From a virus, in IMG/VR virus record IMGVR_UViG_3300045988_135886: 64,000 nucleotides of DNA. One strand, given 5' to 3'. Under the pieces are notes generated by a model. The model made no database searches. It had not been told where the DNA came from and saw only the letters and a program-made list of their open reading frames with translations. This document shows, piece by piece, positions 8,467 to 29,939 of the stretch (its first letter is position 1; the number at the start of each line of letters is the position of its first letter). Both the position numbers and the translations under genes were made by a program.

Positions 8467-8628
8467 GTTGATTGTTTTTGTTGGTGAAAAGTTTTCCATC
8501 GAACATAATATAATTAATATGTTTTTATTTAATTACTATATCTCAAGTAGAAAAAATGGTTTTCTTGAAAAAGGACTGAGCGAAGCGAAGAACTTTTGAA
8601 ACCGTTATCTACGTTAAAAAAGAAAGGA

Positions 8629-10275
8629 ATGATTACAATAGCAAAGCAGAAAAAATGTAAAAGATACTTATTCAAGCTCCACAGTGAACGTCTTCGTAGA
8701 TCACGCTGGAAGCTAGAATATCCATTAGAGGAAGCTCTAAACACAGAAAACATTATTTCTCTGTCTGATAGCCAAATTCTCAGATTCATTGATGAACTCA
8801 ACGGAGACACCAGTGAAGCCAGAGAAGAAGAAGCTTCTTATATAAAGAAAGAAATCAAGCGTCTCAAAAAATCTGATTCTTCTAAGAAAGATACTCTCAT
8901 AGCAAATCTCTATAAAAGATTCTATAATCTTCAATTTGTTCCAGATTACATGTGTCTGATCATTGATAAAATGTCTGATTATAACAGAGCCAATAAAGGC
9001 TTTTCTATCAATGGAATTAAATATCACAGACTCCTAGGCACCAACGGGGGCATAAAGAATTCTACTATTGTTTATGTCTCTGAAAGGCTATATCCCCAGC
9101 TCTATGAGCGTCTCTGTTGCGGCAGGAACCTAGAACAAAAATTTGTGCCAGCTAAACTTGAAGCGTACCAGGCACTGATCTGTTCCGGTAGTATTCCAGT
9201 AAGTATGCCAAAAGGGATCATAGTCGTTCCTGACTGCATTACTCATTTCACAGAAGACATTATTCGTGTAGATGACTCTCAGTCTGATGAACCAATAGTA
9301 GAGTTCCTCAAGGATCAAGAAATAGAGCTTACGGAATCAGACGGTTACGGAATCATGCTTCCATCACTCTCTTACCGTTGGGCAAGAGAGCTTGACGAAG
9401 AAGAAGATTTTTTATCTGGCTGTAATCTCAGAGGACTTCCATGGACAAAGGGCATGGTTTTCACAATGGATTACTTAGCTTTTGGGGAATCTATAGCGAA
9501 AAACTTCTATATAAAAGATGCCTGGGGAGATATGAGAGATATCAGAGAGTCTGAACTGATTATTACTACTTCTATGCTTAAATTATGGGATTCCTACTCT
9601 TCTTTCGAAGATTACTGGTCCAATATAGAAAAATATCATTATCAAATATCTATAGCCAAGACTGCTCCTGCAAGACTTGATGAGTACAGAAGCACAAATT
9701 ACCAGTTCCTGCAGAATTACCACCTTACACCGGAAGAAGTAACTGAATTGGTCCGTCCTACAGTAGAAGAAATTCAAGAAATCCTTGGATTAGATTACAG
9801 GAAGTCACTCCTATTTCTGAGAGGAACAAATCTTACAGAAGATTCCTATATTGATGAAGAGCCATATATCAACGCTCTCATGATTGAGCCACAGATGATT
9901 CATGATCCTTACATCAGAGATAGAATCTACAATATGATAAAGAAAAAAATCAGACAGGCCAAGATTGGTGTACTCAAAGTGAGGGGTAACTTTGCCATCA
10001 TTGGAGGGGATCCGTATAGCTTGATGCAGAGTATCTTTGGTTTACCGGTCACAGGATTGCTCCACGCTGGGGAATGCTGGCATAAACATTGGCTTGATCG
10101 AGGAGTCAGCGAGGTCTGCTGCTTCAGAGCACCTATGACAAGCAAATACAATGTGCGTAAGCTTAAGATAGTAGGGACTCCTGATATGACTTATTGGTAT
10201 AGATATATAAACACATGCATGTTGTTAAACTCATGGGATAGTACTAAGGAAGCTCTTAATGGAGCTGATTGTGAT
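8629..10275 (+). CDS. YonO/RdRP-like two-barrel RNA polymerase, exon 1
   Basis: ATG 8629 has RBS aaaggaa (the ORF track starts at TTG 8596). The C-terminal part, VCCFRAPMTSKYNVRKLKIV...CMLLNSWDSTKEALNGADCD, resembles the RdRP/YonO catalytic barrel. It ends inside the DxDGD motif and runs on only 12 more codons before a stop. Confidence 0.7.
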
Positions 10276-11268
10276 AAAACTCTGTCACCTTATACAGCGA
10301 TGTATATGTAAAACTCGGTGAACTTACAAATGTAAGGTGTCCGGAAGTACCGGGCTAACAGTGGAACTCTTATTGGAAAAATAGATTATAAAAAAGAAGG
10401 TGAGAACAATAGAAGAAAGAATTTTAAATGTAAAAGGTATTGATTACATAGTTCGTGAAGATGGAAAAATATTTAGTACTCATAATCGTGGTAGAGCGAA
10501 ATATCATCAGGAAATAAAACAACGTATGAATTCAGATGGGTACATGTGTATTACTGTCGGTAAAACAGGAAACAGAACAGTTGCCAGTGTTCATAGATTA
10601 GTAGCAAAAGCATTTATCCCTAATCCTTTAAATTTACCGGAAGTAAATCATAAAGATTACAATCGCACAAACAACAGTGTAGATAACTTAGAATGGTGTT
10701 CACATAAAGAAAATATTGACTATACTCTCGCTGCTGGCAGACATGCTTCGCAGACGTTAGATTATAGTGGCAAGAAAAATCCCAACTACGGAAACACCAC
10801 ACTCAGTCAGAAGTACAAAGCTGATCCTGCATATTCAAAAGAAAAACAATCTCGTCCCGGAGGACAGAATGGAAGAGCTATTCCAGTATGTTTGTTAGAT
10901 AAAGACAAAAATGTAATAGCAACTTTTCCATACATGCAGTTATGCGCAGAATATGTGTTGAAACAACTGCACTCTTCTTCATCTCCGGCAGGTCTAGCAG
11001 GAAGAATCCCATATTATATAGAAACAGGTAACATATATAAACACACATACTATTTTTCCAAAGACAATACTGTGCTAAGTCTCAATAATGAGAAAAGTTC
11101 AACGACTATCGAAAGCATAGCTTAAGAGAAATACTTAAGTAAAGAAGCAAGTAGAGTACCTTGTGAGTGGAATCCTCGCAGGGGAAGTGCCGAGCATCTG
11201 TATCTTGGTGATAGAGCTACAGATGAAGATATAGTCTAGTCCTTATGGAAACATAAGGTGTTAAGTCG
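10276..11268 (+). mobile_element. group I intron (HNH-encoding) in the RNA polymerase gene
   Basis: U10275 precedes the 5' splice site and G11268 is the last intron nucleotide. Guide ctct-gtcac (10080-series 10280-10288): gtcac pairs with gtgat (10271-10275), and ctct pairs with exon 2 ggag (11269-11272). R box gttcaacgactat at 11097-11109. S box gaagatatagtct at 11225-11237. Confidence 0.8.
10400..11125 (+). CDS. HNH homing endonuclease (NUMOD4-like N-terminus)
   Basis: IDYIVREDGKIFS...VHRLVAKAFIPNP...VNHKDYNRTNNSVDNLEWCSHKENI is a classic HNH signature. GTG start. Confidence 0.85.
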   Translation: MRTIEERILNVKGIDYIVREDGKIFSTHNRGRAKYHQEIKQRMNSDGYMCITVGKTGNRTVASVHRLVAKAFIPNPLNLPEVNHKDYNRTNNSVDNLEWCSHKENIDYTLAAGRHASQTLDYSGKKNPNYGNTTLSQKYKADPAYSKEKQSRPGGQNGRAIPVCLLDKDKNVIATFPYMQLCAEYVLKQLHSSSSPAGLAGRIPYYIETGNIYKHTYYFSKDNTVLSLNNEKSSTTIESIA

Positions 11269-12354
11269 GGAGACTTAATGTTTACTACTAACAATACTAT
11301 CTTATTAAAACATACAGAAAACCTACCGCCAATCTATTGCATCCAACGTAAAGGAAACAAGGTAGTTCCGACTGAGACAGATATGATACAAGCTAATAAA
11401 GGTTCTTTCGGTGATGCGATTGGTCCTATTACTAATGTTATCACTTCACAGATATGCTTACAGGCAAGGTTCCCGAAAGACAGTGAGGAATATAAAGTCT
11501 TAGACTACAGGATATTGTGTGGGCAGCTGTTCCAACAGAACTCTATTGATAAAGCTAAAGGAATCATCGCTAAACCTATGCCAAAACATTGGTATGACAA
11601 TAGCTACAACCGTATAGAAGAAACAGATACACCAGAAGAAATATCTAAGAAGGAATTCAATCAGAGAATTTGTGCAGATAAGAAGCCGTACTTCTTCATC
11701 TACAACTACCCTACTCTTATGAAAGAATACAAAGACTACATCAAAACATCAGATGCCGTGAGCAGGTCCAGATTTAATATTCCGCTGGAAGAGCTGCTGT
11801 CATCACAAGAGTTGACTGAAGAACAGGCAGAGTTTCTTAAATTCTATAAAGAATTCTATCCAGTCAATGCAGAAACCTGTGTAGTCAATGAACTCTGTTG
11901 GGAAATTGAGAAAACACTGGCTGATGTAAAAGAAAGTAAGGTACCGTTTGACAGTTCTATTCTGAAGTCAGATGCCACCTACACAAATAAGGATAAGGCT
12001 TTTATAAAACGTATCTATGATAAATATAACAAAACTTATGCAAACAGAATGAGCCGCCATAGCTCTGTGTATGAAGATACTTCTTTAACTCCTATTGGAA
12101 TGACTTTTGAATCAGAGTGTGCAGAATATGTTCCAGACGCAGAAAAGCTTTGTAACATTCTGGTTGATTTGGGATATAACACAAAAAAGGGTAAAACTTT
12201 CGTCTGGGAGATGTCCGGAGATACTATTATTGATAACCTTCTTTCTCGAACAGATGGTTATGCGCAGTTTCCTGTAAAGGATCCAGACGGTGATATAGAG
12301 TTTTGCGGCGAACACTTCTCAATGAAAAAAGTAAAAATGAAAGGCGAAGAATAA
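11269..12354 (+). CDS. YonO/RdRP-like RNA polymerase, exon 2
   Basis: In-frame codons GGA GAC (G-D) at 11269-11274 complete GADCD|GD. The ORF continues for 362 codons. Confidence 0.7.
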   Translation, partial: GDLMFTTNNTILLKHTENLPPIYCIQRKGNKVVPTETDMIQANKGSFGDAIGPITNVITSQICLQARFPKDSEEYKVLDYRILCGQLFQQNSIDKAKGIIAKPMPKHWYDNSYNRIEETDTPEEISKKEFNQRICADKKPYFFIYNYPTLMKEYKDYIKTSDAVSRSRFNIPLEELLSSQELTEEQAEFLKFYKEFYPVNAETCVVNELCWEIEKTLADVKESKVPFDSSILKSDATYTNKDKAFIKRIYDKYNKTYANRMSRHSSVYEDTSLTPIGMTFESECAEYVPDAEKLCNILVDLGYNTKKGKTFVWEMSGDTIIDNLLSRTDGYAQFPVKDPDGDIEFCGEHFSMKKVKMKGEE

Positions 12355-17222: not shown

Positions 17223-17263
17223 ATATTAAATTGCTGACCTGGTGAATTCCAGGTTGGCGATTT

Positions 17264-17335
17264 GTCCGGTTAGTCTAGCGGTTAAGACACTGCGCTTTCA
17301 ATGCAGTAACATGGGTTCAATTCCCGTACCGGATG
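17264..17335 (+). tRNA. tRNA-Glu (anticodon UUC)
   Basis: Hand fold: 7-bp acceptor (G1:U72), 4-bp D stem gtct/agac, anticodon stem ctgcg/tgcag with loop cuUUCaa, 4-nt variable loop, T arm atggg-ttcaatt-cccgt. No encoded CCA. Confidence 0.8.
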
Positions 17336-17426
17336 TTTGTATATTTGAGAGTTGTGGGTAATCTCAAATGTCATTTTCCGTATAGTTGTTTCTTTGGGGA
17401 GAACTGGAACTCCCCCCTCCTATTCT

Positions 17427-17509
17427 GCAAAGTAAATTCACAAGGTGTGGAACCGACCTGCTAAGTCGTGTGATCCGACAGGATTGAGTTTCGATTACTC
17501 TGCTTTGCG
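17427..17509 (+). tRNA. type II tRNA-Ser (anticodon GCU), atypical
   Basis: Acceptor gcaaagt/gctttgc, loop cuGCUaa, variable-arm stem atcc/ggat, T loop ttcgatt. The D arm is non-standard, and the anticodon and T stems each have one mismatch. Confidence 0.5.
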
Positions 17510-17576
17510 TTACAAGATATGTAGATTACAGCCCACCTCCTGTGGGAATTCGTAGGTGAAAATCCTACCATGTAAC
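17510..17576 (+). pseudogene. tRNA-like cloverleaf with a 5-nt anticodon loop (degenerate tRNA?)
   Basis: Acceptor ttacaag/catgtaa (one A:A mismatch), D stem tgta/taca with a 3-nt loop, stem cccac/gtggg closing loop ctcct, T arm gtagg-tgaaaat-cctac. Confidence 0.3.
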
Positions 17577-17638
17577 TCTTGGTTATGTGATTGTAGCATA
17601 TCATGAATATAAAGATAACCGGATTGATTCCGGTTGAA

Positions 17639-17663
17639 AGGCAGGACTACTCTCCTGCCTTTT
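17639..17663 (+). terminator. hairpin with a short U-tract inside the tRNA cluster
   Basis: 8-bp stem aggcagga/tcctgcct, 6-nt loop, then ttt. Confidence 0.45.
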
Positions 17664-17720
17664 ACTTATAATTAGGAAATGGCTGCGGAGCGGCCTAACA
17701 ATCTGGAAAGACAGATTAAT

Positions 17721-17804
17721 GTTGCGTGTCCGGTAGGTCGAGGGTGCAGTCTTGAAAACTGTCTGGGTGTAAAAGCCTCTGGGGTTCGAATCCCTAACGC
17801 AACG
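17721..17804 (+). tRNA. type II tRNA-Ser (anticodon UGA)
   Basis: Perfect 7-bp acceptor gttgcgt/acgcaac, anticodon stem gcagt/actgt with loop cuUGAaa, long variable arm, T arm tgggg-ttcgaat-cccta. Confidence 0.7.
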
Positions 17805-17807
17805 TCC

Positions 17808-17889
17808 GGGAGAACGGTAGAGATGGAGATCTACGGCGGTCTGTAAAACCGTTGCAATTGCTTTGAGTGTTCGAATCACTCTTCTCCCA
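17808..17889 (+). tRNA. type II tRNA-Tyr (anticodon GUA)
   Basis: Acceptor gggagaa/ttctccc, D stem gtag/ctac, anticodon stem gcggt/accgt with loop cuGUAaa, long variable arm, T arm gagtg-ttcgaat-cactc. Lies 3 nt after tRNA-Ser. Confidence 0.8.
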
Positions 17890-18155: not shown

Positions 18156-19358
18156 GTGGCACAAGAAGTTGAAAAAAAGCCTGTACCAAGGGCAAAACCT
18201 AAAGCACCTGCTCAAAAAGTTATTGATCGTGCTATTGATGAAGCTCTCTATGAAGTAGGGCGTACTAAATTTACATGTAATATGTGTGGAAAGCTGAAAG
18301 ATGCTTCCGACTTTTATAAAAGTACAGATCCTCTATGTACTACTGGTGTGACAAGAATATGTAAAATGTGTGCAGCAAAGTTGGCATATTCTGAAGATTT
18401 AAAAGGCAATAAGAAAGCCCCTGATGAACAGAGTGTCCAGTTAGCGCTCAGATATTTAGACAAACCTTTCTTTCAAAAGCTTTATGATGAATCTATTCTT
18501 GAAGCTGCTAACACTATGTCTGGTCGGCCCAAAAATAATACCTGGACTAGTTATATAAAAAATATATCTATGCCACAATATAATACATTAACTTGGAAAG
18601 ATGGTGATTGTGGCAATAGTTCTACTCTTCTACCGTCTATTGGGTCTGTAGATAACTCTGATGAAGTAAAAAAAATGTATAAAACCAATAAAAGAACTGT
18701 TATTTCAGCTCTTGGTTATGATCCATTCGAATCTGCTGCTGATGCAGATAAACCATTAATGTATGGAAAATTAGTAGGTTTCCTCGATGAAAGTACGCAA
18801 GACGATGAATTGAAGTTAGGTGCCTGTGTAGAGATTGTACATAGTCTTAACCAATCTGAAAAAATCAATACTGTAATTAATGCTCTGCAGAAAACTCCAG
18901 AATCTATTATAAAAAATTCTGCTACTATCAAAGCTCTTGAAGCCACTAAAAAAGACATTATGAAAACTACTCTTGATTTGGCTCGTGATAATGGAATTAG
19001 TATTAAGCATAGCAATCATAATACTAAAGGTGCTAATACCTGGACCGGGAAAGTAAAAGAGCTTAAGGAAATGAAGCTTCGTGAACAGGAAGTAAATGCT
19101 TTTGATATAGGAACTTCTCAAGGTATGCTTCAGGTTGCGGAAGCCAGTACTGCTGCAATCATGAAACAGTTGGCTTTAGATGAAAATGACTATACTGAAA
19201 TGATATCAGCCCAACGTCAGAAGGTGTTGGAATTAGAAAATAAATGTGATGCTGCGGTTGAAGAAGCACGTATTCTTCGTAGAGAGAACGATGATCTAAA
19301 AAATTTCCTTAGAGATAAGAAATTGATTGATGAAAATGATGAGGTGATTGTGGAATGA
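18156..19358 (+). CDS. putative small terminase subunit (position-based), GTG start
   Basis: RBS aaaaggagg. Immediately upstream of, and overlapping, the large terminase gene (ATGA). Zinc-ribbon CNMCGK...CKMC and a C-terminal coiled coil. No family motif recognised. Confidence 0.4.
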   Translation: MAQEVEKKPVPRAKPKAPAQKVIDRAIDEALYEVGRTKFTCNMCGKLKDASDFYKSTDPLCTTGVTRICKMCAAKLAYSEDLKGNKKAPDEQSVQLALRYLDKPFFQKLYDESILEAANTMSGRPKNNTWTSYIKNISMPQYNTLTWKDGDCGNSSTLLPSIGSVDNSDEVKKMYKTNKRTVISALGYDPFESAADADKPLMYGKLVGFLDESTQDDELKLGACVEIVHSLNQSEKINTVINALQKTPESIIKNSATIKALEATKKDIMKTTLDLARDNGISIKHSNHNTKGANTWTGKVKELKEMKLREQEVNAFDIGTSQGMLQVAEASTAAIMKQLALDENDYTEMISAQRQKVLELENKCDAAVEEARILRRENDDLKNFLRDKKLIDENDEVIVE

Positions 19359-19906
19359 AACAGACTGATTCTGGTATATGGGTTCCAGATACACCTACTA
19401 TTTTTGTTAAGCCTACAGAAGAAATCATTTCTCAACGAAAAATGGAAGGAATGCAGAAACTTTCTGAAATTAAACAATGGGGATTAAGGAATCCAACTAA
19501 ATTTATGGAAAGATTCATAGGTGTTGACCTTCTTGATGTGCAGACCTATACATTTATGAATTCTTGGGATAAGATGTATGCTCTATGGCTATGTACCAGA
19601 AACTACGGAAAATCGACATTGCTTGCTTTATATTACATGACAAGAGGTATGCTTCTTAATAATTGTAGATGTTATATATGCGCTGGCACCAGTGACCAAT
19701 CCATAGAAACTTTTGAAAAGATTGTATCTATCGCTAAAAATGAAATTGAGTCATTCACTGGATTAACTGATGTATTTAGGAATGAAGTTGTCATTAATAT
19801 GACCAATAATGATGGTTTTATAAGAAATCCTGCAGGCTTTACTTATAGATTGTATAATGGTAGCTTCGTTAAAACACTTAACAGTAACGTCAACGCAAAA
19901 AGAGGT
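19355..19906 (+). CDS. terL: terminase large subunit, exon 1 (ATPase N-terminus)
   Basis: Walker A-like LCTRNYGKST. Ends ...NSNVNAKRG, then 9 unrelated codons and a stop. The boundary could alternatively be at 19913. Confidence 0.75.
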
Positions 19907-21176
19907 AAAAAATATAATACGGTTTTATATAAATAAATCTTAGGAGGAACGTATAATGCCAAACAAAAACTGGGACACTGCTGAAGTGTCTTTTTTAATT
20001 GCAAATTATAATACGCTTTCAAATGAAGAAATAGGTATTCACTTAAACAGAAGTACAGGTGCCATAACAGCTAAATGCTACCAACTTGGATTAAAAAAGA
20101 AACAGACTTGGTCAGACAGCGAAATTTCTTATTTAAAAAGTAATTATAATTTTCTTACGCAAGAACAAATAGCTAATTACTTAGGACGCACTAAAAGTGC
20201 TGTGAATATAAAGGCTAGTAAATTAGGATTAAAAAAAAGATATGAATATAACCATGATTATTTTGAATGTATAGATTCTGAAGATAAAGCTTATTGGTTA
20301 GGTTTTATTTGGGCTGATGGGGCTTTATTTAAAAATGAAAAAGCTAACTCAGGAGAACTGTCTATTGAATTGCAATTACAAGATAAAGAACATTTAAAAA
20401 AATTCAATAAAAGTATAGACGGAAATTTACAAGTAAAAGAGAGAACACGATCAAATTGTTTCAGTGGGAAATACAAAGATAATGTATATACTACTTGTTT
20501 TATTCGCGTACATAGCATCAAGATCGTCAATGACTTAATTAAATTAGGATGTACTCCAAATAAATCAGCAACTATTGGATTACCAGATTTGCCTGAAAAT
20601 TTAATGTGGCATTTCATTAGAGGCTACTTCGATGGTGACGGCTGTGTAGTTTATCAAGATCATAAAACCAATGTAAGATGTGACTTCACTTCTATCTCTT
20701 CTTCTTTAGTCAACCAACTCAGAACATGGTTATATCAACATGGAATCAATTCATATATTACACATGATAAAAATAAATTAAGATTGTGCATCGCTGGCAG
20801 AGACTATAATCTTCTATTCTTATCTAAAATCTATGACAATTCTACAATTTATTTATCTAGGAAATATCAAAAACAACTTCAAATCAGAAATCATATCATT
20901 CAAAAAAAAATCAGCTTAATTGCCTCGTTTATTGGTAACAATAAATTACGAAAGTCAAATGGGAAAGAAAACTGGAAGTGCTGAAATGCGAACCAGACTG
21001 GAAGGCTGTATTTAAAAGTACAGTCACAGGCAGAGCATAGAGAATGAACCTGTGAAAACAGAATATAATTTCTCCAAGAGTCCCCATCTCCTTACTAAGG
21101 ATGAAAAGGTATGCCGAACTTATAAGAAATACAATTATAAGAATTAGAAGATAAAAAGCTTCTAAGATAACATATG
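19907..21176 (+). mobile_element. group I-type intron (LAGLIDADG-encoding) in terL
   Basis: U19906 and G21176 flank it. Joining them gives RG-KRAEAVCF-DE. The alternative 19914..21183 (U19913/G21183, P1 aaaat/gtttt with G19922) gives RG-KKSEAVCF-DE, which has the same length. Tentative P7 boxes: ccagactgg (20993-21001) and aagtacagtcac (21016-21027). Confidence 0.65.
19956..20984 (+). CDS. double-motif LAGLIDADG homing endonuclease
   Basis: YWLGFIWADGAL and FIRGYFDGDGCV motifs. Own RBS taggagg. Two N-terminal helix-turn-helix-like repeats (...IGIHLNRSTGAITAKCYQLGLKKK / IANYLGRTKSAVNIKASKLGLKKR). Confidence 0.85.
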   Translation: MPNKNWDTAEVSFLIANYNTLSNEEIGIHLNRSTGAITAKCYQLGLKKKQTWSDSEISYLKSNYNFLTQEQIANYLGRTKSAVNIKASKLGLKKRYEYNHDYFECIDSEDKAYWLGFIWADGALFKNEKANSGELSIELQLQDKEHLKKFNKSIDGNLQVKERTRSNCFSGKYKDNVYTTCFIRVHSIKIVNDLIKLGCTPNKSATIGLPDLPENLMWHFIRGYFDGDGCVVYQDHKTNVRCDFTSISSSLVNQLRTWLYQHGINSYITHDKNKLRLCIAGRDYNLLFLSKIYDNSTIYLSRKYQKQLQIRNHIIQKKISLIASFIGNNKLRKSNGKENWKC

Positions 21177-22631
21177 AAAAGAGCTGAAGCAGTTTGTTTT
21201 GATGAATCTGGTTTCCTGGACGAAGAAGTATTTCAGGTTATTGAACCATATACAGCTCAGGATAAGAACTTTAAAATGGGTGGAAGTGTAAATGTAACTA
21301 CTCTTCCTAAAGAATTGCCTAACCAATTACTCTACACTTCAAGTGCCAGCACTACTGATTCTTACTTTTATAAAAAGTATAAAGAATACAGTAAAGCTAT
21401 GATCTGGGGTTCCAAAGACCATTTTGTAGCAGATATCAACTGTGAAATTATGTTTAATGCTACATATAGAGGTAAGATTTATCCAGCATCTCTGTTAACC
21501 AAAGAAAAGGTTGACAATGCAATGCGTGAAAATAAAGAAAAAGCTCTTCGTGAGTATTACAATATATTCACTTCTGATGGCGGTGCAGATGCCATCTTCA
21601 AACGTTCTATGATAGTAAAAAATTCTACTATCCGTCCCCCAATTATGTTTAATGATACAAAAGACAGACTTTTTGCCTTAGCATATGATCCAGCTAGATC
21701 TATGGATAACTCTTTTGTCCTTGTTGGAGAATATTATAAAGATTCTTCAGACAATTGGAGAATGCGTATTGCTAATGGTATTAATTTTATGGATCTTAGT
21801 AAAAAGAATAAAACTCCTATGCGTACACCTGAACAGGTCAAGAAACTGAAACAACTGATTCTTGACTATAACGGTGATGGAGTCGATGACTATACAAACA
21901 TAAGTAATATCTTTATAGATGCTGGTTCTGGTGGTGCCGGTGTTAATATTGCAGATTATCTTATGGAAGATTGGTATGAAGAAGGACATGAAGGTGAACA
22001 GAAATATTTACATAGAGGTCTTATAGATAAAGAACAGTCGTCTGATTATGTCAAAAAATTTCCTAATGCTGTAGATAAAATTAAATTATTACCGCCTACT
22101 ATGTATAAATCTATTATCTATGAAGCTGCTATTGAAATGATGAGACTTGATCTCATAGATTTCACTGCTGAGTATGATAATAAAGGATATTTAACAATGC
22201 TAGATATAGACGAAAAAGAAATGGCAAAAGCAAAAAAAGATTTAATTGCTAAGTATAAAGATAAATCTATGTCTAAAGGTGAATTAGATCGTTTAGTTGA
22301 AGAAGAACTTCAAGAAAGAAATTTGGCCTCAACTAAAATTTATAAACTATCTCCTGATGAGGAACTTGGTCTAGTACAGATCGACTCGCTAAAGGAGGAA
22401 ATGGTTAATATGGTACGAAAGAAACGAGAATCTGGTAAAGATGGCTTTGAACTGTCTACAGAGAAGCAAAACAAATTGCATGATGATCGTTCGTATTGTT
22501 TCTCAATGCTCTGTTATGGACTCTCAGAACTTCGTAGAGAACATATTAAAAATAAGAAACGTCCCAAAAAAGAAAATATAGCTGCTGCTATGCCTATTCG
22601 TAAAGGTGTAGTAAGAAAAATGTTTAGTTAG
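21177..22631 (+). CDS. terL: terminase large subunit, exon 2 (Walker B plus nuclease)
   Basis: Begins KRAEAVCFDESGFLDEE (Walker B hhhhDE). No SD before the listed ATG 21174 (aagataacatATG). In-frame stop at 21168. Confidence 0.75.
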   Translation, partial: KRAEAVCFDESGFLDEEVFQVIEPYTAQDKNFKMGGSVNVTTLPKELPNQLLYTSSASTTDSYFYKKYKEYSKAMIWGSKDHFVADINCEIMFNATYRGKIYPASLLTKEKVDNAMRENKEKALREYYNIFTSDGGADAIFKRSMIVKNSTIRPPIMFNDTKDRLFALAYDPARSMDNSFVLVGEYYKDSSDNWRMRIANGINFMDLSKKNKTPMRTPEQVKKLKQLILDYNGDGVDDYTNISNIFIDAGSGGAGVNIADYLMEDWYEEGHEGEQKYLHRGLIDKEQSSDYVKKFPNAVDKIKLLPPTMYKSIIYEAAIEMMRLDLIDFTAEYDNKGYLTMLDIDEKEMAKAKKDLIAKYKDKSMSKGELDRLVEEELQERNLASTKIYKLSPDEELGLVQIDSLKEEMVNMVRKKRESGKDGFELSTEKQNKLHDDRSYCFSMLCYGLSELRREHIKNKKRPKKENIAAAMPIRKGVVRKMFS

Positions 22632-24424: not shown

Positions 24425-26017
24425 ATGAAGAAAAAAGTACTTACATTAGATGATCTCTATTCTTTTTTTGAACAGAGGAATCAGACAACTGTATTCAGTG
24501 CCAAAGAGTCTGGATATAATATTGCAGTTCAGGTTCCGGCAAAATTTGAATTAGAAGATTCTGATGAAGATGATGGTTTTTTACGAACTAAATTCAAAGT
24601 AAATCATTTATATGAAAATAGAAATAAATCTTATATATCTGAAGAAGCTCAGTTAGAAGCTTTACCGTCTTTACACTATAGACCAGTTCTGGCCGCTATT
24701 ACCACTTTATCTGATGGAACTACTGATTTTACTTCTCATGCTATGGAATTTGATGATGAAGGAAACATTACATACATTGAACAACCTATTGGTGTTTTTG
24801 TCAATCCTGAAGGATATCATCTTGAGTATGATAAAGAACATGATAAAACATATGTTATTGCCGATGCGGTAATTTATAACGATTATTGTGCTCCAGCATG
24901 TGAAATTATTCAGCGTAAACAAGGAAGTAAAGTAAGTTGTGAATTAAGTATTTCAGAACTCTCTTTTGACACTAAGGACAAAGTGCTTCACTTAGATAAA
25001 TTCAGATATAATGGTGTAACTTGTTTAGGCACTGATCCTATCACCGAGAAACCCGTTGAAGAAGGTATGGAGGGTGCCAGATTAGATATTGCTGATTTCA
25101 GTGAAGAGAATAATAGTCTTTTTACTAATACAGAAGAAAAATTACTAAAGGTTATTCAGTCTTTGCAGGAGACTCTTGCTAAGTTTGAAATTGAAGAACC
25201 AACGAAAGGAGGAAACCAAACGTTGAAACTCAATGAATTATTAGAGAAATACTCTAAAACTGTTGAAGACCTTGACTTTGATTATGAGTCTATGTCCGAT
25301 GAAGAGTTAGAGGCTAAGTTTGCTGAATTATTCGAAGGTACAGAAGATCCAGACGAACCGGTAAAAGAACCAGTTGCTGATCCGGAAGCTGATCCAGAAT
25401 CAAATGACAATTCAGAGTTTAGCAATAAAAAAAGATATACAAAAAAAGAAAATGGTAATACTGAAGTTACTTTTGAAATTAGTCATGAAGATGTAAGAGG
25501 TGCATTATATACTCTTCTGTCTACTTGGGAAGAAAATGATAATGAATGGTATTTTATTAATGCTACATATGATGACCATTTTGTATATAGCAACTGGGAT
25601 GAAAGTAAAATTTTCCGTCAGGGCTATACAAAAGATGGCGATGCAGTATCTCTCTCAGATGAAAGAACAGAATTATTTAAAGAGTATCTTACACTTTCAG
25701 AAAAAAGTGAATTAGAAGAACTCAGAAGTAACTATGCTGCTCTTCAGAATAGAGTTAATGAGTATGAATCAAAAGATAAAGAAGCTGTTCTTGGTGCTGA
25801 AATTTACACTGAACTGAAAGATAGAGAAGATTTTAAAGAACTGATCAAAAATCAGGCTATCTACAGTGTAGAAGAAGTACAGACAAGAGCCGATGCTATT
25901 TTAGGTAAATATGTTAAAGAAAAAGGCACTTTCAACTATCAGCAGAAACCTAGTGCTATTGGTTTTACTGAACCTAAGAAAGCTAAGAAACCATATGGAA
26001 GTTTATTTAAGGATTGA
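24425..26017 (+). CDS. putative scaffolding protein, possibly with an N-terminal prohead-protease-like domain
   Basis: ATG 24425 with RBS gaaaggagg. Acidic linker EDPDEPVKEPVADPEADPES and a C-terminal coiled coil. Lies between the portal and capsid genes. Confidence 0.4.
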   Translation: MKKKVLTLDDLYSFFEQRNQTTVFSAKESGYNIAVQVPAKFELEDSDEDDGFLRTKFKVNHLYENRNKSYISEEAQLEALPSLHYRPVLAAITTLSDGTTDFTSHAMEFDDEGNITYIEQPIGVFVNPEGYHLEYDKEHDKTYVIADAVIYNDYCAPACEIIQRKQGSKVSCELSISELSFDTKDKVLHLDKFRYNGVTCLGTDPITEKPVEEGMEGARLDIADFSEENNSLFTNTEEKLLKVIQSLQETLAKFEIEEPTKGGNQTLKLNELLEKYSKTVEDLDFDYESMSDEELEAKFAELFEGTEDPDEPVKEPVADPEADPESNDNSEFSNKKRYTKKENGNTEVTFEISHEDVRGALYTLLSTWEENDNEWYFINATYDDHFVYSNWDESKIFRQGYTKDGDAVSLSDERTELFKEYLTLSEKSELEELRSNYAALQNRVNEYESKDKEAVLGAEIYTELKDREDFKELIKNQAIYSVEEVQTRADAILGKYVKEKGTFNYQQKPSAIGFTEPKKAKKPYGSLFKD

Positions 26018-26028
26018 GCTATCAAATA
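26006..26028 (+). terminator. rho-independent terminator
   Basis: Stem gagcta/tagctc, loop tcaaa, then tttttt. Confidence 0.6.
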
Positions 26029-26071
26029 GCTCTTTTTTATTGCCTAAAAATATTTAAAGGAGGAAATAAAA

Positions 26072-26545
26072 ATGGCATCTAATTTTCAGAAATTTATGGC
26101 TACTGCTGAAAAACACGCTGTTGCTGGTAGCTCTAAGCTGAAAGCTACTATTGCAGGTCATATTTATAACATTCAGATTGAAGAAGATCTGGACAACGGA
26201 TCAATTGTTGCAAAAGGCGATTATATCAAACCGGAGACTTATAAAGCTAAAGATTCTACTGGTTTTGCTGGTGTAGTACTGGATAAAGCAGCTAACGGAA
26301 ATTGGTATGTAGAAGTTAAAACACCAGGAGATGCTCTGTTACTGCTCCAGGTACCAATGTTATACGAAGAATATACTACCGCTCTTAAACATGAAAGTAA
26401 TTTCTATAACGCAAATGGTGACATCGTTCGAGCATATGAGCTTTATGTAGGTGATGTGTTTGAAGTATCATCTGAAGGATTTAGTGGTACTCCTGCTAAA
26501 GGTGCAACTGTAACTGTAGCAGACAAAAAGCTGACAATTGGTTAA
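26072..26545 (+). CDS. capsid-associated protein (decoration or accessory, position-based)
   Basis: Very strong RBS aaaggagg. 157 aa. Immediately upstream of the major capsid gene. Confidence 0.4.
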   Translation: MASNFQKFMATAEKHAVAGSSKLKATIAGHIYNIQIEEDLDNGSIVAKGDYIKPETYKAKDSTGFAGVVLDKAANGNWYVEVKTPGDALLLLQVPMLYEEYTTALKHESNFYNANGDIVRAYELYVGDVFEVSSEGFSGTPAKGATVTVADKKLTIG

Positions 26546-26563
26546 TGAAAGGAGGAATACATA

Positions 26564-27024
26564 ATGAAACTTAATTTTTCAAGTAATGAAGTAAGAAATA
26601 TTTTTGCTGAAAATGATTATGCAGAGTACTCCCAGCTTATGTTTGACACAGCTAAGGGAGAAGAAAAAGTATCTACAAAAGATGCTAATAATAAAATCAG
26701 AGAGATTATGTTCTCTGTACTTGGAGTAGATGAAAACTGCTCAAGAAAAGAACTTAGAAAAGCTATTCGTAGACATAAAATTGATGTATTTGAAATTATC
26801 GAAGAGACAGTAGAGAATCTGCTTGTTTCTGGTTGGGGAGAAAACCCATTCTTCAATGAATTTGTAGAAATCAAATCTATGGCTGACGGTGATACTAATG
26901 AGTTCTATGTACCGGATGAAGTTATTCTGACAGTGTCTGAACTTGCAGGCAATCATCATGACCTGATCAGACAGCGTCTGGCAGAAGGACAGACATTCTC
27001 TGTTAGAACTTCATGGTATGGGAT
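26564..27024 (+). CDS. major capsid protein, exon 1
   Basis: RBS aaaggagg. Ends ...FSVRTSWYG, then 3 codons and a stop. Together with 28265-28883 it makes a 359-aa protein in the capsid position. Confidence 0.65.
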
Positions 27025-28264
27025 TAACTTTTAGTCCCCAAGTACTGTAAAGTGCTTTGTACAAACTAACGCATTGAATTGCTGGAATTTCTTAAAGCTA
27101 ATTACACTACAACGTAAGTATGAAATAAAACTAAGCGTGAATGTTATGAAAATAGAAAGAAGTAATTAGATGATACAAGGTTAAATCCTAAATATCGAGA
27201 GCACTCAACACCTATAACAGGTGTTTTTATTATGCTTAAAATAGAGAATCAGCAGCCAAGATCCGAACAGGATAAGGTTCAACGACTATCTGGAAACAGA
27301 GTAGAACTACAAGCGATTGGTAGTTCGAAGTGGTGCGCACCCTCAATTAGGGTGAAGATATAGTCTAATCTTTAGTGAAAGCTAAAGGGCTTTTAGCCAA
27401 CACAGAGTAGCGTCTGAATTAATATCATTTTTCAAAATAATTATATAAGGAAGTATACATGAAAGAAAAACTATGTGGCATTTATTGCATAGAGAATATA
27501 CTCAACAATAAAAAATATATTGGTATGTCAAGAGATATAAAACGGAGATGGTCTGAACATAAAACAGAATTAAACTCTCATACTCATGTCAATCAGTATT
27601 TACAAGCTGCCTGGGATAAGTACGGCAAAGAAAATTTTAAGTTTTATATTATTGAGTTATGTGATGAAGAGAATCTCAGTGAACAAGAATGTCATTATAT
27701 ACGTTTTTATAAATCATTATCACATGAAAATGGATACAATCTGACTACTGGTGGAGAAAATACTTCTATCGGCAAATCAGTAATATCATTAAAAGATGGG
27801 GCTATCTACAATTATGTAAATGATGCAGCTCAAAATGCCAACGTTCAGTCAGCAACTATGATTTCATGGTGTCGTCAAAAACATAACTATATGTATTTAG
27901 ATGAGTATAACGCTCTTTCTCAAGATGAGAAAGAATATTGGAAAAATTTTGATTGGAAAAACTTTGATCATAAAAAATTAAGTCAAGTACATTCTCGAGA
28001 AAATCTCTCAACAACTACCCTGAAAAAACTAAGTCAAGCGACATCTGGAGATAAAAATCCAAGAGCGCTAAAAGTGTATTGCCCACAATTAAATGAAACA
28101 TTTGATTGTATAAAATATGCATCAGATAAGTATGGCGTTAATAGAGGAAGTATAACTTCTTGTATTAAAGGTAGACTTAAAAGTGCCGGTAAACATCCCG
28201 CTACCGGAGAAAAATTAACATGGGAACTAATTGAAAAATGATATTAAAGTGTTAAATATAAATG
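27025..28264 (+). mobile_element. group I intron (GIY-YIG-encoding) in the major capsid gene
   Basis: P box gaattgctggaa (27076-27087), Q box aatcagcagcc (27247-27257), R box gttcaacgactat (27277-27289), S box gaagatatagtct (27354-27366). Guide tttta-gtccc (27029-27038): gtccc pairs with gggat (27020-27024, U27024:G27034), and tttta pairs with exon 2 taaaa (28265-28269) after G28264. The join is in frame. Confidence 0.8.
27459..28241 (+). CDS. GIY-YIG homing endonuclease (intron-encoded)
   Basis: CGIYCIENILNNKKYIGMSRDIKRRWSEHKT...NGYNLTTGG. RBS aaggaag. Confidence 0.85.
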   Translation: MKEKLCGIYCIENILNNKKYIGMSRDIKRRWSEHKTELNSHTHVNQYLQAAWDKYGKENFKFYIIELCDEENLSEQECHYIRFYKSLSHENGYNLTTGGENTSIGKSVISLKDGAIYNYVNDAAQNANVQSATMISWCRQKHNYMYLDEYNALSQDEKEYWKNFDWKNFDHKKLSQVHSRENLSTTTLKKLSQATSGDKNPRALKVYCPQLNETFDCIKYASDKYGVNRGSITSCIKGRLKSAGKHPATGEKLTWELIEK

Positions 28265-28883
28265 TAAAATTTACGCAGAATATGAGCTGTTTATGGCAGG
28301 TCGTATTGACTGGGCTGGATTCGTACAGAAAATCTATGAAGCTTTTGACAAGAAAATTAATGATATGGTATATGCGGCTGTAATGGCAGCAGGTGAGAAG
28401 GTTCTCCCGTCTACACAGTTTAATAAGACAGGTACACTTTCAGCAGCTACAAAAGATGAGTTTATGACTCTAATCGAAGATGTACAGATGGCTACAGGTG
28501 ATGAAGTAGTTGTTATGGGTACCAAATCTGCTCTTGCAAAACTTTCTGCTATGGAAGATATTACTTGGGTATCTAATGCAATGAAAGATGAAAGACACAC
28601 TACAGGCCGTTTAGGTATGTTTGAAGGTATTCGTCTTGTTGAAATTCCACAGAGATTTGCTAATAATGACACAAGTAAAAAGTTAGTAGATAATACTAAA
28701 CTTCTGATTATGCCAGTAGCTGATAACAAATTTATCAAAATCTACAATGAAGGCGACGCTCAGATTAAAGAAGTATCTGATGGAAATACAAATATGGATA
28801 AAACTATTGAGTATGAATATCAGATTAAAATGGGTGTGGCCACAATTATTGGAAAGCGTTTCGGAGTTTGGACACTTAAATAA
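28265..28883 (+). CDS. major capsid protein, exon 2
   Basis: The frame is open from 28248. The junction reads SWYG-I-KIYAEYELFMAGRIDW. No SD before the listed ATG 28293. A strong hairpin follows. Confidence 0.65.
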
Positions 28884-28893
28884 AAAACTATTT

Positions 28894-28918
28894 AAAGAGG
28901 TGGAATTACCACCTCTTT
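28894..28918 (+). terminator. 10-bp-stem hairpin after the capsid gene
   Basis: aaagaggtgg / ccacctcttt with loop aatta. Weak U-tract. Confidence 0.5.
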
Positions 28919-28942
28919 AACTGATTAAAAAGGAGTAATAAC

Positions 28943-29479
28943 ATGGCAACAAGAAGAGCTGCAACAAAAACTGTTGCTACTACTGAAAATACTACAAAGG
29001 AAACAGCTCCTGTTAAAACTACTAAAAAGTTTGAACAGAACGAACTTATTGAATGTCGTTCTTTAGTGCAGGGAACATTATTTATGCCTGGTAAACAAAG
29101 TGATATTCTATACCGTTGGGATGGATATGGAGATGTTCGTGAAGTAGAATATAGAGATTTGTACTCTCTTAAATCTAGCCGATCACCATATATTTATGAT
29201 CCATGTTTCCAGATTGAGAATGATGAATTATTAGAGGATCCTAGATGGAAAGATGTAAAAGATCTTTATGATAATCTTTATGATGCTTCTGATATTAATC
29301 AGTTTCTTGCTCTCTCACCAGCTCAGTTTAAGAAAGCACTTGCTGAAGTTCCTAAGGGACTTAAAACAGCAATTAAAATTGAGGTAGCAACTAGACTGGA
29401 TAATGGTACATTTGATTCTATTCAGAAAGTACGTGCTGTAGATGAAATTTGTGGTACAGAGTTAGAAAAAATGATTTAG
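28943..29479 (+). CDS. hypothetical head/neck-module protein (178 aa)
   Basis: RBS aaaaggag. No motif recognised. Confidence 0.55.
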   Translation: MATRRAATKTVATTENTTKETAPVKTTKKFEQNELIECRSLVQGTLFMPGKQSDILYRWDGYGDVREVEYRDLYSLKSSRSPYIYDPCFQIENDELLEDPRWKDVKDLYDNLYDASDINQFLALSPAQFKKALAEVPKGLKTAIKIEVATRLDNGTFDSIQKVRAVDEICGTELEKMI

Positions 29480-29489
29480 GAGGTGTTCT

Positions 29490-29939
29490 ATGACCTCTTA
29501 TGAAACAGTATTTAAACGATTTGAAAATAAAGTTGAAGATATAAAAGTATTAAAATTAGCGTCTGATGACTGGACTGAATTGTGCTTAGAATGGCTAAAT
29601 AGTGCTATTGCAATGATTGAATTAGACCAGTTAAAAATAGAACATGATTTAACGAAAAAAAATGATGTTCTGTTCGAATTCGAGGACACCCTTACTAATG
29701 GTGAAATAGAAGTCGTTGCTTTATATATGGTCGTTGCTTGGTATGATATTCGTTTGAATTCTTTAGAGCATACTAATATGTTTTATGGTTCAAAAGATGA
29801 AAAATGGACCAGCCAAAAAGAACATGCCAATTATATTATGAGCATTCAAAAGAAATATAAAAAGGAAGCCAGAAAATATTTTAGGAATCACTCTTCCAGA
29901 AGTAATTCTTATCTGGATGGTGATCAGAATGAAGTATAA
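29490..29939 (+). CDS. hypothetical head-tail joining module protein (149 aa)
   Basis: RBS taggaggtg. Position only. Confidence 0.5.
   Translation: MTSYETVFKRFENKVEDIKVLKLASDDWTELCLEWLNSAIAMIELDQLKIEHDLTKKNDVLFEFEDTLTNGEIEVVALYMVVAWYDIRLNSLEHTNMFYGSKDEKWTSQKEHANYIMSIQKKYKKEARKYFRNHSSRSNSYLDGDQNEV

What the first reader, a model, noticed from the sequence alone, without database searches (positions are those of the whole stretch)
26564..28883. Major capsid gene interrupted by a GIY-YIG group I intron with textbook P, Q, R and S boxes
ORFs of 156 aa and 196 aa flank a 1240-nt insert. The insert contains P (gaattgctggaa), Q (aatcagcagcc), R (gttcaacgactat) and S (gaagatatagtct) elements, followed by a GIY-YIG ORF that ends 23 nt before the 3' splice site. 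Guide tttta-gtccc (27029-27038) pairs with gggat|(27020-27024) and with |taaaa (28265-28269). The join splits one codon (AT|T = Ile) and gives ...SWYG-I-KIYAEYELFMAGRIDW..., 359 aa in total. The most abundant virion protein therefore depends on splicing.
Basis: partly seen in the sequence, partly recalled or inferred. Interest (0 to 1): 0.65.

Follow-up and report, generated by a model that had tools for sequence, protein, structure and literature searches.

The report
Mobile self-splicing intron in capsid gene
The major capsid gene of this uncultivated SPbeta-like gut phage is split by a well-formed group I intron carrying its own homing endonuclease gene. This is a real and cleanly documented case of a kind of element already known in phages.

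Summary
Window 27025-28264 is a 1240-nt group I intron (Rfam RF00028, 72.3 bits, E 2e-16). It lies in a 359-aa HK97-fold capsid gene (Pfam YonB family).

Near-identical contigs lack exactly these 1240 nt. They encode an uninterrupted 359-aa protein that reads ...SWYG-I-KIYAEYE... across the predicted joint.

Thirteen distinct relatives of the intron at the same site support the fold. 98% of cells are paired, and 54 of 96 pairs show compensatory changes, including P1, P7 and P10. The window's copy forms 96 of 96 pairs.

It belongs to subgroup IA (P7.1 and P7.2 present). An I-TevI-like GIY-YIG gene (27459-28241) sits in an 832-nt cassette between P9.2 and a conserved 15-nt 3' tail.

Empty sites, intron with endonuclease gene, and intron without it all coexist in public metagenomes. 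A second intron site lies 60 nt upstream in relatives and is empty here.

Splicing itself could not be tested, because no RNA data were available.

Capsid-gene group I introns are already known (Tuc2009, mycobacteriophage LittleE), so this is a new member of a known kind.

In passing, the polymerase and terminase genes of the window are also interrupted.

The parts
26564..27024 (+). Capsid gene exon 1 (153 codons plus AT of codon 154)
   Evidence: ORF list and translation. Collinear with the intron-less alleles L001/L002.
27025..28264 (+). Group I intron, subgroup IA, 1240 nt. It begins UAAC and ends with the terminal G at 28264.
   Evidence: Rfam RF00028, 72.3 bits. Exactly this stretch is absent from L001/L002. 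Covariation in alignment A2.
27020..27038 (+). P1: exon GGGAU plus intron UA (27020-27026) pairs with UAGUCCC (27032-27038), with U27024.G27034 at the 5' splice site. An in-frame stop UAG lies at 27032-27034.
   Evidence: The fourth pair is A-U here, G-C in most relatives and U-A in L078, each matched to a change of the codon (Ile, Val, Leu).
27025..27033 (+). P1 loop UAACUUUUA, the intron strand of P10. It is complementary to the first 9 nt of exon 2.
   Evidence: 83.6% of cells paired against 20-55% in slid controls, with 4 pairs changed on both sides. The L078 loop UAAACA..GC follows its different exon AGCUGUUUA.
27042..27416 (+). Ribozyme core, with these helices:
- P2: 27042-46 / 27051-55
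- P3: 27071-75 / 27332-36
- P4: 27080-85 / 27249-54
- P5: 27090-92 / 27243-45
- P5 extension: 27098-27196
- P6: 27255-57 / 27276-78
- P6a: 27261-64 / 27270-73
- P7: 27284-88 / 27361-65
- P7.1: 27289-92 / 27297-300
- P7.2: 27304-10 / 27320-26
- P8: 27340-42 / 27350-52
- P9: 27370-76 / 27381-87
- P9.1: 27388-91 / 27395-98
- P9.2: 27403-06 / 27413-16
   Evidence: Column-to-coordinate map of the structure tested. The window row forms 96 of 96 pairs.
27199..27240 (+). Optional peripheral hairpin inside the P5 extension, found only in some relatives. It contains a terminator-like stem 27207-27225 followed by a T-run.
   Evidence: Alignment A2 columns 204-247; terminator scan. Function not tested.
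27415..28249 (+). Endonuclease cassette (832 nt net) inserted between P9.2 and the 3' tail. The boundaries are ambiguous by a few bases.
   Evidence: The ORF-less intron of L051 (408 nt) equals the window intron minus this stretch: 386 of 390 and 15 of 15 identical. L064, L065 and L067 keep remnants of both cassette ends.
27459..28241 (+). GIY-YIG homing endonuclease gene, 260 aa, I-TevI-like. Its own Shine-Dalgarno sequence AAGGAAG lies at 27447-27453.
   Evidence: Pfam PF01541 at 9e-12 and an I-HmuI NUMOD-like C-terminal match. PHROG homing endonuclease families. I-TevI catalytic domain 1mk0 at 6e-10. TIGR01453 at 85 bits against a cut-off of 56.
28250..28264 (+). Conserved 3' tail GUUAAAUAUAAAUG ending in the terminal G. 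GUUA 28251-28254 is predicted to pair with UAAC 27067-27070 at the base of P3.
   Evidence: Near-invariant in all 13 relatives. Predicted helix 3 is 96% paired, with one pair changed on both sides; this is weak support.
28265..28883 (+). Capsid gene exon 2 (T of codon 154, 205 codons, then stop). The first 9 nt, UAAAAUUUA, are the exon strand of P10.
26964..26965 (+). Empty second intron site (site A), 60 nt upstream of the occupied site.
   Evidence: Relatives L034-41, L051, L064, L065, L070, L072, L079 and L080 carry an insert of about 1.1 kb here. Rfam scores 67.5 and 72.6 bits in L051 and L064. L051's insert has a 235-aa GIY-YIG ORF, and its double splice restores 359 aa.

Best explanation
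Window 27025-28264 is a mobile subgroup-IA group I intron in the gene for the HK97-fold major capsid protein (YonB family) of an uncultivated SPbeta-like phage.

Mechanism:
- The capsid gene is transcribed with the intron.
- Exon GGGAU pairs with the guide GUCCC to form P1, with U.G at the junction.
- An external guanosine attacks after U27024.
- The P1 loop then holds the first 9 nt of exon 2 (P10).
- The terminal G28264 enters the guanosine site in P7, and the exons are ligated.
- Ligation rebuilds codon AUU (Ile154) in ...TSWYG-I-KIYAEYE... and yields a 359-aa protein.

The intron carries an I-TevI-like GIY-YIG endonuclease gene in a separate 832-nt cassette. The cassette lies between P9.2 and a conserved 15-nt 3' tail, so the core is complete only once the tail is transcribed.

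The endonuclease presumably cuts intron-less capsid alleles of co-infecting relatives, and repair copies the intron into them (homing).

What is shown: the RNA family, the fold by covariation, the exact joint, and the mixture of empty and occupied sites with and without the endonuclease gene. What is inferred: catalysis, splicing efficiency, endonuclease activity and target.
For: - RNA family: Rfam RF00028, 72.3 bits, E 2e-16, full-length model match.
- Exact joint: intron-less contigs L001 and L002 are 98.5-99.4% identical on both flanks and lack exactly the 1240 nt. P0001 and hundreds of homologues are collinear 355-365-aa proteins across the joint.
- Fold: 13 distinct site-B introns from hosts with 48-99% capsid identity give 98.1% paired cells, against 35-45% when the partners are slid. 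54 of 96 pairs show compensatory change, including P1, P3, P7, P7.1 and P7.2.
- P10 covaries with the coding sequence.
- The window copy forms 96 of 96 pairs.
- Endonuclease: PF01541, TIGR01453 above cut-off, and the I-TevI catalytic domain. Its 90%-identity cluster has 138 members, and all 15 listed are 260 aa long.
- Cassette nature: ORF-less L051 is 386 of 390 identical to the window intron, and L064 and L067 hold cassette remnants.
- Population: the exon-1 ORF is seen on 207 contigs, and the intron-less 359-aa form is also common. Of 76 IMG/VR loci, 21 carry a site-B intron.
- All 7 close intron-bearing alleles have G at -3, which P1 needs. 13 of 14 close uninterrupted alleles have A there.
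- Capsid identity: all 50 listed Foldseek PDB hits are HK97-fold capsid or encapsulin-type shell proteins at probability 0.97-1.00, with 145 hits at E <= 0.001. Homologues are annotated as major capsid protein in Bacillus phages, in the order terminase, portal, protease, 157-aa protein, capsid. Cluster member DAG68368.1 is named capsid protein.
Against:
- The capsid model has low confidence (pLDDT 64, TM-scores 0.3-0.5), so the fold assignment rests on many consistent but individually weak matches.
- The predicted tail-to-P3 helix has little covariation.
- A terminator-like hairpin sits inside the intron.
- A few intron-less alleles (L016, L039, L040) also have G at -3, so that change is not strictly linked to the intron.
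Confidence: 0.93

Rival explanations
1. The insert is a decayed, splicing-dead relic, so the capsid gene in this genome is a pseudogene in a defective phage or prophage.
For: Splicing was not observed. ORF-less and remnant-bearing copies show that parts of the element do decay.
Against: The window copy keeps all 96 consensus pairs and every conserved core box. The same split allele is found on more than 200 contigs. All 15 listed members of the endonuclease cluster keep the full 260-aa ORF.
Confidence: 0.03
2. This is a gene in pieces. The endonuclease insertion split the capsid gene, and two polypeptides (156 aa and 196 aa) assemble without RNA splicing, as with the endonuclease-split ribonucleotide reductase of phage Aeh1 (own knowledge).
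For: Both pieces are ORFs, and the second starts with ATG.
Against: - That ATG is an ordinary internal Met of the family and is not conserved.
- No ribosome-binding site precedes it (direct reading).
- This reading would drop 9 conserved codons (KIYAEYELF) and leave an intact, covarying ribozyme unexplained.
- P1 and P10 covary with the exon codons.
Confidence: 0.02
3. The intron is real, but the host protein is another HK97-fold or head-module protein, not the major capsid subunit.
For: The local Pfam copy and the PDB sequence search gave no hit. PHROG 4088 has no assigned function. The NCBIfam capsid model matches only at 20 bits, against a cut-off of 80.
Against: The fold search returns only HK97-fold capsid or encapsulin-type shell proteins. 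No other HK97-fold candidate lies in the head module. The position after portal, protease and a small protein is the capsid position. Homologues are annotated as major capsid protein.
Confidence: 0.05

Closest known systems
Phage T4 group IA2 introns with GIY-YIG endonucleases, especially nrdD/sunY (I-TevII) and td (I-TevI)
   Same: - Subgroup IA architecture, with P7.1 and P7.2.
- I-TevI-like GIY-YIG catalytic domain (1mk0, E 6e-10).
- The ORF has its own ribosome-binding site.
- As in sunY (own knowledge: Michel et al. 1992, Genes Dev), the ORF lies 3' of the core, so a short remote 3' tail must be transcribed before the core is complete.
- A CNNNG motif (CTCTG, 26998-27002) lies 23-27 nt upstream of the insertion point, which is the I-TevI cleavage geometry (own knowledge; untested here).
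   Different: - The host gene is a virion structural gene, not a nucleotide-metabolism gene.
- The endonuclease is only about 30% identical in the catalytic domain and has a different C-terminal half.
- The host is a low-GC gut Firmicutes-type phage.
- P10 is unusually long (up to 9 pairs).
Group I introns in other phage capsid genes: lactococcal phage Tuc2009 and mycobacteriophage LittleE (PMC3706429)
   Same: A major capsid gene is interrupted by a self-splicing intron. LittleE splicing was proven by RT-PCR and N-terminal sequencing across the joint. The intron there also carries a homing endonuclease gene.
   Different: - The capsid families are unrelated.
- The LittleE intron is 819 nt, with an HNH gene on the opposite strand, and its class was left uncertain.
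- Here the class is clear, the endonuclease is GIY-YIG on the same strand, and the family has two sites 60 nt apart.
Intron of Enterocloster phages CB457P2 / CB473P1-3 (OP172753-7)
   Same: This is the closest ribozyme in the phage collection: 67.7% identity over intron positions 50-356 and Rfam 95.9 bits. The layout is the same, with the core followed by an I-TevI-like ORF (24% identity).
   Different: It interrupts a different gene (CDS 00009/00011, with no similarity to the capsid). The gene looks like a terminase to me, but that was not tested.
Twort-like Staphylococcus phage introns (Romulus/Remus, phiIPLA-RODI and others)
   Same: Intron positions 8-170 (P1 to the P5 extension) are 74-75% identical. 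In Romulus the match starts where a truncated 113-aa 'capsid protein' CDS ends, which suggests a related intron in another capsid-module gene.
   Different: Only the 5' third is similar. The host genes are unrelated to YonB. This was not analysed further.

Membership tests
Group I intron (Rfam RF00028) | Covariance-model score at or above the curated gathering score | tested here: met
   72.3 bits against 50, E 2.1e-16, model positions 1-253.
Group I intron (Rfam RF00028) | P1 formed by the 5' exon and an internal guide, with U.G at the 5' splice site | tested here: met
   GGGAU pairs with GUCCC, with U27024.G27034. The U.G pair is kept in 12 of 13 relatives, and the neighbouring pair covaries (A-U, G-C, U-A).
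Group I intron (Rfam RF00028) | [quoted passage not shown] | tested here: met
   G28264 is invariant in the conserved AAUG end. P10 is 83.6% paired, with 4 compensatory pairs.
Group I intron (Rfam RF00028) | Conserved core P3-P9, including the P3/P7 pseudoknot | tested here: met
   22 helices, 98.1% of cells paired, 54 of 96 pairs with change on both sides. P7 has a U-A to C-G change in L073.
Group I intron (Rfam RF00028) | Excision restores an uninterrupted, conserved reading frame | tested here: met
   Intron-less alleles L001, L002 and L008-L018 and protein P0001.
Group I intron (Rfam RF00028) | Guanosine-dependent self-splicing of the RNA | not testable with these tools
Subgroup IA | Extra helices P7.1 and P7.2 between the 5' strand of P7 and the 3' strand of P3 (own knowledge: Michel and Westhof 1990) | tested here: met
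   Hairpins 27289-27300 and 27304-27326 lie at that place. 3 of 4 and 6 of 6 of their pairs have compensatory changes (helices 16 and 17).
Subgroup IA | Assignment to IA1, IA2 or IA3 | not tested
   No subgroup-specific models are on hand. The IA2 label rests on resemblance to T4 introns only.
GIY-YIG homing endonuclease, I-TevI type (PF01541 / TIGR01453) | Profile scores above the curated cut-offs | tested here: met
   PF01541 at 45.6 bits against 22.6. TIGR01453 at 85 bits against 56.
GIY-YIG homing endonuclease, I-TevI type (PF01541 / TIGR01453) | Catalytic motif residues: GIY, YIG, the Arg after the second motif, Glu, and Asn of GYN | tested here: inconclusive
   GIY 7-9, YIG 20-22, KRRW 28-31 and GYN 92-94 align with I-TevI. 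The catalytic Glu aligns one residue off (Q/E), so it is likely present but not certain.
GIY-YIG homing endonuclease, I-TevI type (PF01541 / TIGR01453) | Site-specific cleavage of the intron-less allele, and homing | not testable with these tools
   There is indirect support only. Empty and occupied sites coexist in 99%-identical genomes, and sequence differences near the site sort with intron presence.
HK97-fold major capsid protein | HK97 fold | tested here: met
   Foldseek against PDB gives 145 hits at E <= 0.001. All 50 listed hits are HK97-fold capsid or encapsulin-type shell proteins, at probability 0.97-1.00. However, the model pLDDT is 64 and TM-scores are 0.3-0.5.
HK97-fold major capsid protein | Position in the head module after terminase, portal and protease/scaffold | tested here: met
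   The window order matches that of Bacillus phage Thrax3, where the homologue is annotated as major capsid protein.
HK97-fold major capsid protein | Most abundant protein of the virion shell | not testable with these tools
   No isolate and no proteome are available.

The most novel reading that the evidence does not exclude
The intron and its endonuclease are more than a passenger. Intron-bearing and intron-less capsid alleles coexist at 99% identity in gut metagenomes, so the GIY-YIG enzyme may act as a weapon in phage-phage competition. It would cut the capsid gene of co-infecting intron-less relatives and so depress their yield, as shown for the intron endonuclease gp210 of PhiPA3 (PMC11620839). 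The two intron sites 60 nt apart in the most conserved block of the capsid gene would then mark an arms race over one essential target. Separately, the 1270-nt terminase insert that Rfam does not recognise could be a divergent or unclassified self-splicing RNA.
Probability: 0.25. Interest if true: 0.6.

Novelty: new member of a known kind. Interest (0 to 1): 0.35.

Why it matters
- Annotation: automatic gene callers report two hypothetical proteins and an endonuclease where there is one capsid gene. The split ORFs occur on hundreds of public contigs. PHROG families 22779 and 27131 match only residues 153-356 and 34-138 of the protein, as families built from such halves would (their membership was not checked).
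- Biology: production of virions in this lineage would depend on efficient RNA self-splicing.
- Evolution: all stages of the homing cycle are present in natural populations, namely the empty site, the intron with endonuclease gene, the intron with endonuclease remnants, and the clean ORF-less intron. There are also two sites 60 nt apart. Together these give a convenient natural data set for studying intron gain and loss in phage structural genes.
- Novelty: none of this changes current understanding of group I introns.

Tried and rejected
- Megablast of 26000-29500 against 50,697 phage records found no match, so the phage is not a sequenced isolate.
- The capsid profile found nothing meaningful in the PDB sequences. 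The local Pfam copy lacks PF27364, so it gave no hit.
- An intein was rejected. The insert has in-frame stops from 27032 and a separate ORF with its own ribosome-binding site.
- The genes-in-pieces and dead-relic readings were rejected (see rivals).
- Rfam at gathering threshold missed site-B introns in L060, L066 and L075, which nevertheless align and pair at 88-94 of 96 pairs. An Rfam negative is therefore weak evidence, which matters for the terminase insert.
The alignment has 538 columns, above the 400-column limit.
- For the terminase insert, all five full-length copies are identical over the last 270 nt of the insert, and the ORF-less copy in L112 differs at one base. No covariation test was therefore possible. 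Its fold z-score is only -2.4.
- The search for YonB in the literature gave nothing relevant.
Full report
**Observation.** Reading 26400-29000 and the ORF list confirm the basic layout.
- There is a 156-aa ORF (26564-27034) and a 196-aa ORF (28293-28883) on the + strand.
- Between them lies a 260-aa ORF (27459-28241).
- Joining 27024 to 28265 gives an open 1080-nt frame and a 359-aa protein that reads ...TSWYG-I-KIYAEYELFMAGRIDW....
- The endonuclease stop codon ends 23 nt before 28264.

Every number in the finding is correct.

**Is it a group I intron?** Rfam places a full-length RF00028 match at 27015-27387 (72.3 bits, gathering 50, E 2e-16). Its P1 is GGGAUUAA...UUAGUCCC, and the four boxes fall on the P4, P6 and P7 strands.

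Independent support comes from relatives. A scan of IMG/VR with the capsid alignment returned 76 loci. In 21 of them the gene is interrupted at exactly this codon. The inserts are either 1224-1253 nt with an endonuclease gene or 374-408 nt without one. The host capsids range from 48% to 99% identity.

I aligned 13 distinct introns with the endonuclease cassette removed (alignment A2).
- RNAalifold predicts the standard helices.
- I added the P7 pseudoknot and counted pairs. 98.1% of 1238 cells are paired.
- 54 of 96 pairs have changes on both sides. No shuffle out of 500 reached this.
- Sliding the partners by 1-3 columns gives only 35-45% paired.
- The window's own copy forms 96 of 96 pairs.

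Two covarying hairpins (27289-27300 and 27304-27326) lie between the 5' strand of P7 and the 3' strand of P3. These are P7.1 and P7.2, the mark of subgroup IA, to which the T4 and SPO1 introns belong. The subgroup definition is from my own knowledge.

**Splice sites.**
- In P1, the fourth pair is A-U in the window, G-C in most relatives and U-A in L078. In each case the change comes with a change of the interrupted codon (AUU Ile, GUU Val, UU|A Leu).
- The whole P1 loop (UAACUUUUA, 27025-27033) is complementary to the first nine bases of exon 2 (UAAAAUUUA). This P10 is 83.6% paired across the family against 20-55% in slid controls. Four of its pairs are changed on both sides.
- In L078 the exon reads AGCUGUUUA and the loop reads UAAACA..GC.
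- The intron ends in an invariant ..AAUG.
- An in-frame UAG (27032-27034) inside P1 stops ribosomes three codons into the intron, and it is conserved.

**Proof of the joint from DNA.** The spliced protein finds P0001, a 359-aa protein that is 99% identical, along with hundreds of collinear homologues of 355-365 aa.
- The contigs that encode P0001 (L001, L002) match the window at 98.5-99.4% on both sides. They lack precisely 27025-28264.
- The residues around the joint (T149 S150 W151 G153 K155 Y157 E159 E161) are among the invariant columns of the family. Homing endonucleases typically target such sites.
- All seven close intron-bearing alleles have GGG-AU at the junction. 13 of 14 close uninterrupted alleles have GGA-AU, which would put an A.C mismatch in P1. 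Three intron-less alleles also have G, so the link is strong but not absolute.

**The endonuclease and its cassette.** The 260-aa ORF matches:
- PF01541 (9e-12), plus an I-HmuI/NUMOD-like C-terminal segment;
- PHROG homing-endonuclease families;
- the I-TevI catalytic domain structure 1mk0 (6e-10);
- TIGR01453 'group I intron endonuclease', above its cut-off.

It has its own AAGGAAG ribosome-binding site.

The ORF-less intron of L051 (408 nt) is the window intron minus 832 nt. The first 390 nt are 386 of 390 identical. The four differences are compensatory within P9.2 (CAGA/UCUG against UGGA/UCCA). The last 15 nt are identical. The gene is therefore a separate cassette that sits between P9.2 and a conserved 15-nt tail.

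L064, L065 and L067 lack the ORF but keep remnants of both cassette ends, so endonuclease loss has happened more than once.

RNAalifold also pairs GUUA of the tail (28251-54) with UAAC at the base of P3 (27067-70). Support for this is weak, with one compensatory pair. By analogy with the T4 sunY intron (own knowledge), a remote 3' tail could keep the core inactive until the whole intron is transcribed. This is inference.

**Is the host gene the major capsid gene?**
- The precomputed Pfam family is PF27364 (YonB). Neighbouring genes carry YonG_N, YonD_N, YomW and YomU_Tube, which makes this an SPbeta-like head-tail module.
- Homologues at about 33% identity in large Bacillus siphophages (Thrax, Kirov, PJN02) are annotated as major capsid protein. 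They lie in the same order: terminase, portal, protease, small protein, capsid.
- One cluster member is named capsid protein.
- An AlphaFold model is mediocre (pLDDT 64). Even so, Foldseek gives 145 PDB hits at E <= 0.001, and all 50 listed hits are HK97-fold capsid or encapsulin-type shell proteins.

I accept the assignment with about 0.9 confidence.

**Population picture.** The exact exon-1 ORF occurs on 207 contigs, and the commonest exon-2 ORF variant on 182. The endonuclease occurs on 153 contigs, plus 104 for a close variant. Intron-less 359-aa forms are also common.

Relatives also have a second site, 60 nt upstream (window 26964|26965, codon CU|N in HHDL|IRQRL). It is occupied in 15 of the 76 loci by an intron of about 1.1 kb. 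In L051 that intron carries a paralogous 235-aa GIY-YIG gene. Rfam scores 67.5 and 72.6 bits in L051 and L064. Four loci carry both introns around a 60-nt exon, and in L051 the double splice restores the 359-aa protein. In the window this site is empty.

**What is known.** Group I introns in phage capsid genes have been described. Examples are Tuc2009 and mycobacteriophage LittleE, where splicing was proven (PMC3706429). Gut phage genomes rich in introns are also on record (PMC12880540).

The nearest ribozyme among sequenced phages is in Enterocloster phages, in another gene. The 5' third resembles introns of Twort-like staphylococcal phages.

The finding is therefore a new, very well supported member of a known kind.

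**Not shown.** Splicing, endonuclease activity and homing are inferred, because no RNA data could be reached.

**Seen in passing.** Two more essential genes of the window are interrupted.
- The YonO-like RNA polymerase gene is split inside its DxD|GD motif by a 993-nt insert (10276-11268). The insert has an ORF (10400-11125) that I read as HNH-like, and an Rfam group I match of 49.7 bits.
- The large terminase gene is split next to Walker B by a 1270-nt insert. The insert carries a LAGLIDADG gene, and Rfam does not recognise it.

Noticed in passing
window 19907-21179 (ORF 19956-20984): - The large terminase gene (19355-19909 plus 21180-22631) is interrupted next to its Walker B motif (VCFDE) by a 1270-nt insert. 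The joined protein is 668 of 669 identical to the uninterrupted L001 gene.
- The insert carries a LAGLIDADG_3 endonuclease ORF (342 aa).
- Rfam finds nothing there, even at E <= 1.
- L112 has an ORF-less 283-nt version at the same site that is 267 of 268 identical to window 20909-21176. The end of the ORF therefore overlaps the conserved RNA.
- By eye, exon GAGGU pairs with GCCUC (20922-20926) with U.G at the junction, the insert ends in G, and AGCUY pairs with exon GAGCU. This looks like a group-I-like P1 and P10 with the ORF in the P1 loop.
- All copies are essentially identical, so covariation could not be tested. The fold z-score is -2.4.
   Followed up: partly
window 10276-11268 (ORF 10400-11125): - The YonO-like two-barrel RNA polymerase gene (ORFs 8596-10311 and 11278-12354) is split inside its catalytic DxD|GD motif by a 993-nt insert.
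- The exon ends in T and the insert ends in G.
- The insert holds a 241-aa ORF that looks like an HNH endonuclease from its sequence motifs; no profile search was run on it.
- Rfam Intron_gpI matches at 10843-11258 with 49.7 bits, 0.3 below gathering, E 1.2e-9.
- The joint was fixed by alignment to the uninterrupted Enterocloster phage PMBT24 homologue.
- The homologues in Clostridium phage c-st and Enterocloster CB457P1/CB473P3 are also in two pieces.
   Followed up: partly
window 26964|26965; L051 2854-3999; L034-L041, L064, L065, L070, L072, L079, L080: There is a second intron insertion site in the same capsid gene, 60 nt upstream of the occupied one. It is empty in the window and occupied in 15 of 76 related loci. 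Its group I intron is about 1.1 kb, and in L051 it carries a 235-aa GIY-YIG gene. Four loci have both introns around a 60-nt exon.
   Followed up: yes
window 27207-27233: A terminator-like hairpin (AACACCTATAACAGGTGTT followed by TTTATTAT) lies inside the intron, in an optional peripheral hairpin of the P5 extension that only some relatives have. Whether it attenuates capsid transcription is unknown.
   Followed up: no
window 26998-27002: The motif CTCTG (CNNNG) lies 23-27 nt upstream of the intron insertion point. This is the spacing at which I-TevI cuts its td target (own knowledge). It is a possible cleavage site of the intron endonuclease and is untested.
   Followed up: no
window 17263-17889: A cluster of three phage tRNA genes lies upstream of the terminase module: Glu-TTC, Ser-TGA and Tyr-GTA (ARAGORN). 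Rfam had scored the last two weakly as tRNA-Sec.
   Followed up: yes
L072 6783-7091; L112 2177-2512; L107/L108 1525-2501: Relatives carry further inserts that the window lacks.
- L072 has a group I intron in a gene downstream of the capsid gene (92.5 bits).
- L112 has one at terminase residue 593/594 (85.6 bits).
- L107 and L108 have an unexamined insert near terminase residue 77-90.

This phage lineage is intron-rich.
   Followed up: partly
L005 (Staphylococcus phage Romulus, JX846613) 2501-2654: Intron positions 8-170 are 74% identical to a stretch that begins exactly where a truncated 113-aa 'capsid protein' CDS ends in Romulus and Remus. This hints at an unannotated related intron in a staphylococcal capsid-module gene.
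   Followed up: no
PHROG families 22779 and 27131: These two PHROG families of unknown function match only residues 153-356 and 34-138 of the capsid protein. They look like families built from the two halves of intron-split capsid genes in sequenced phages. Their membership was not checked.
   Followed up: no
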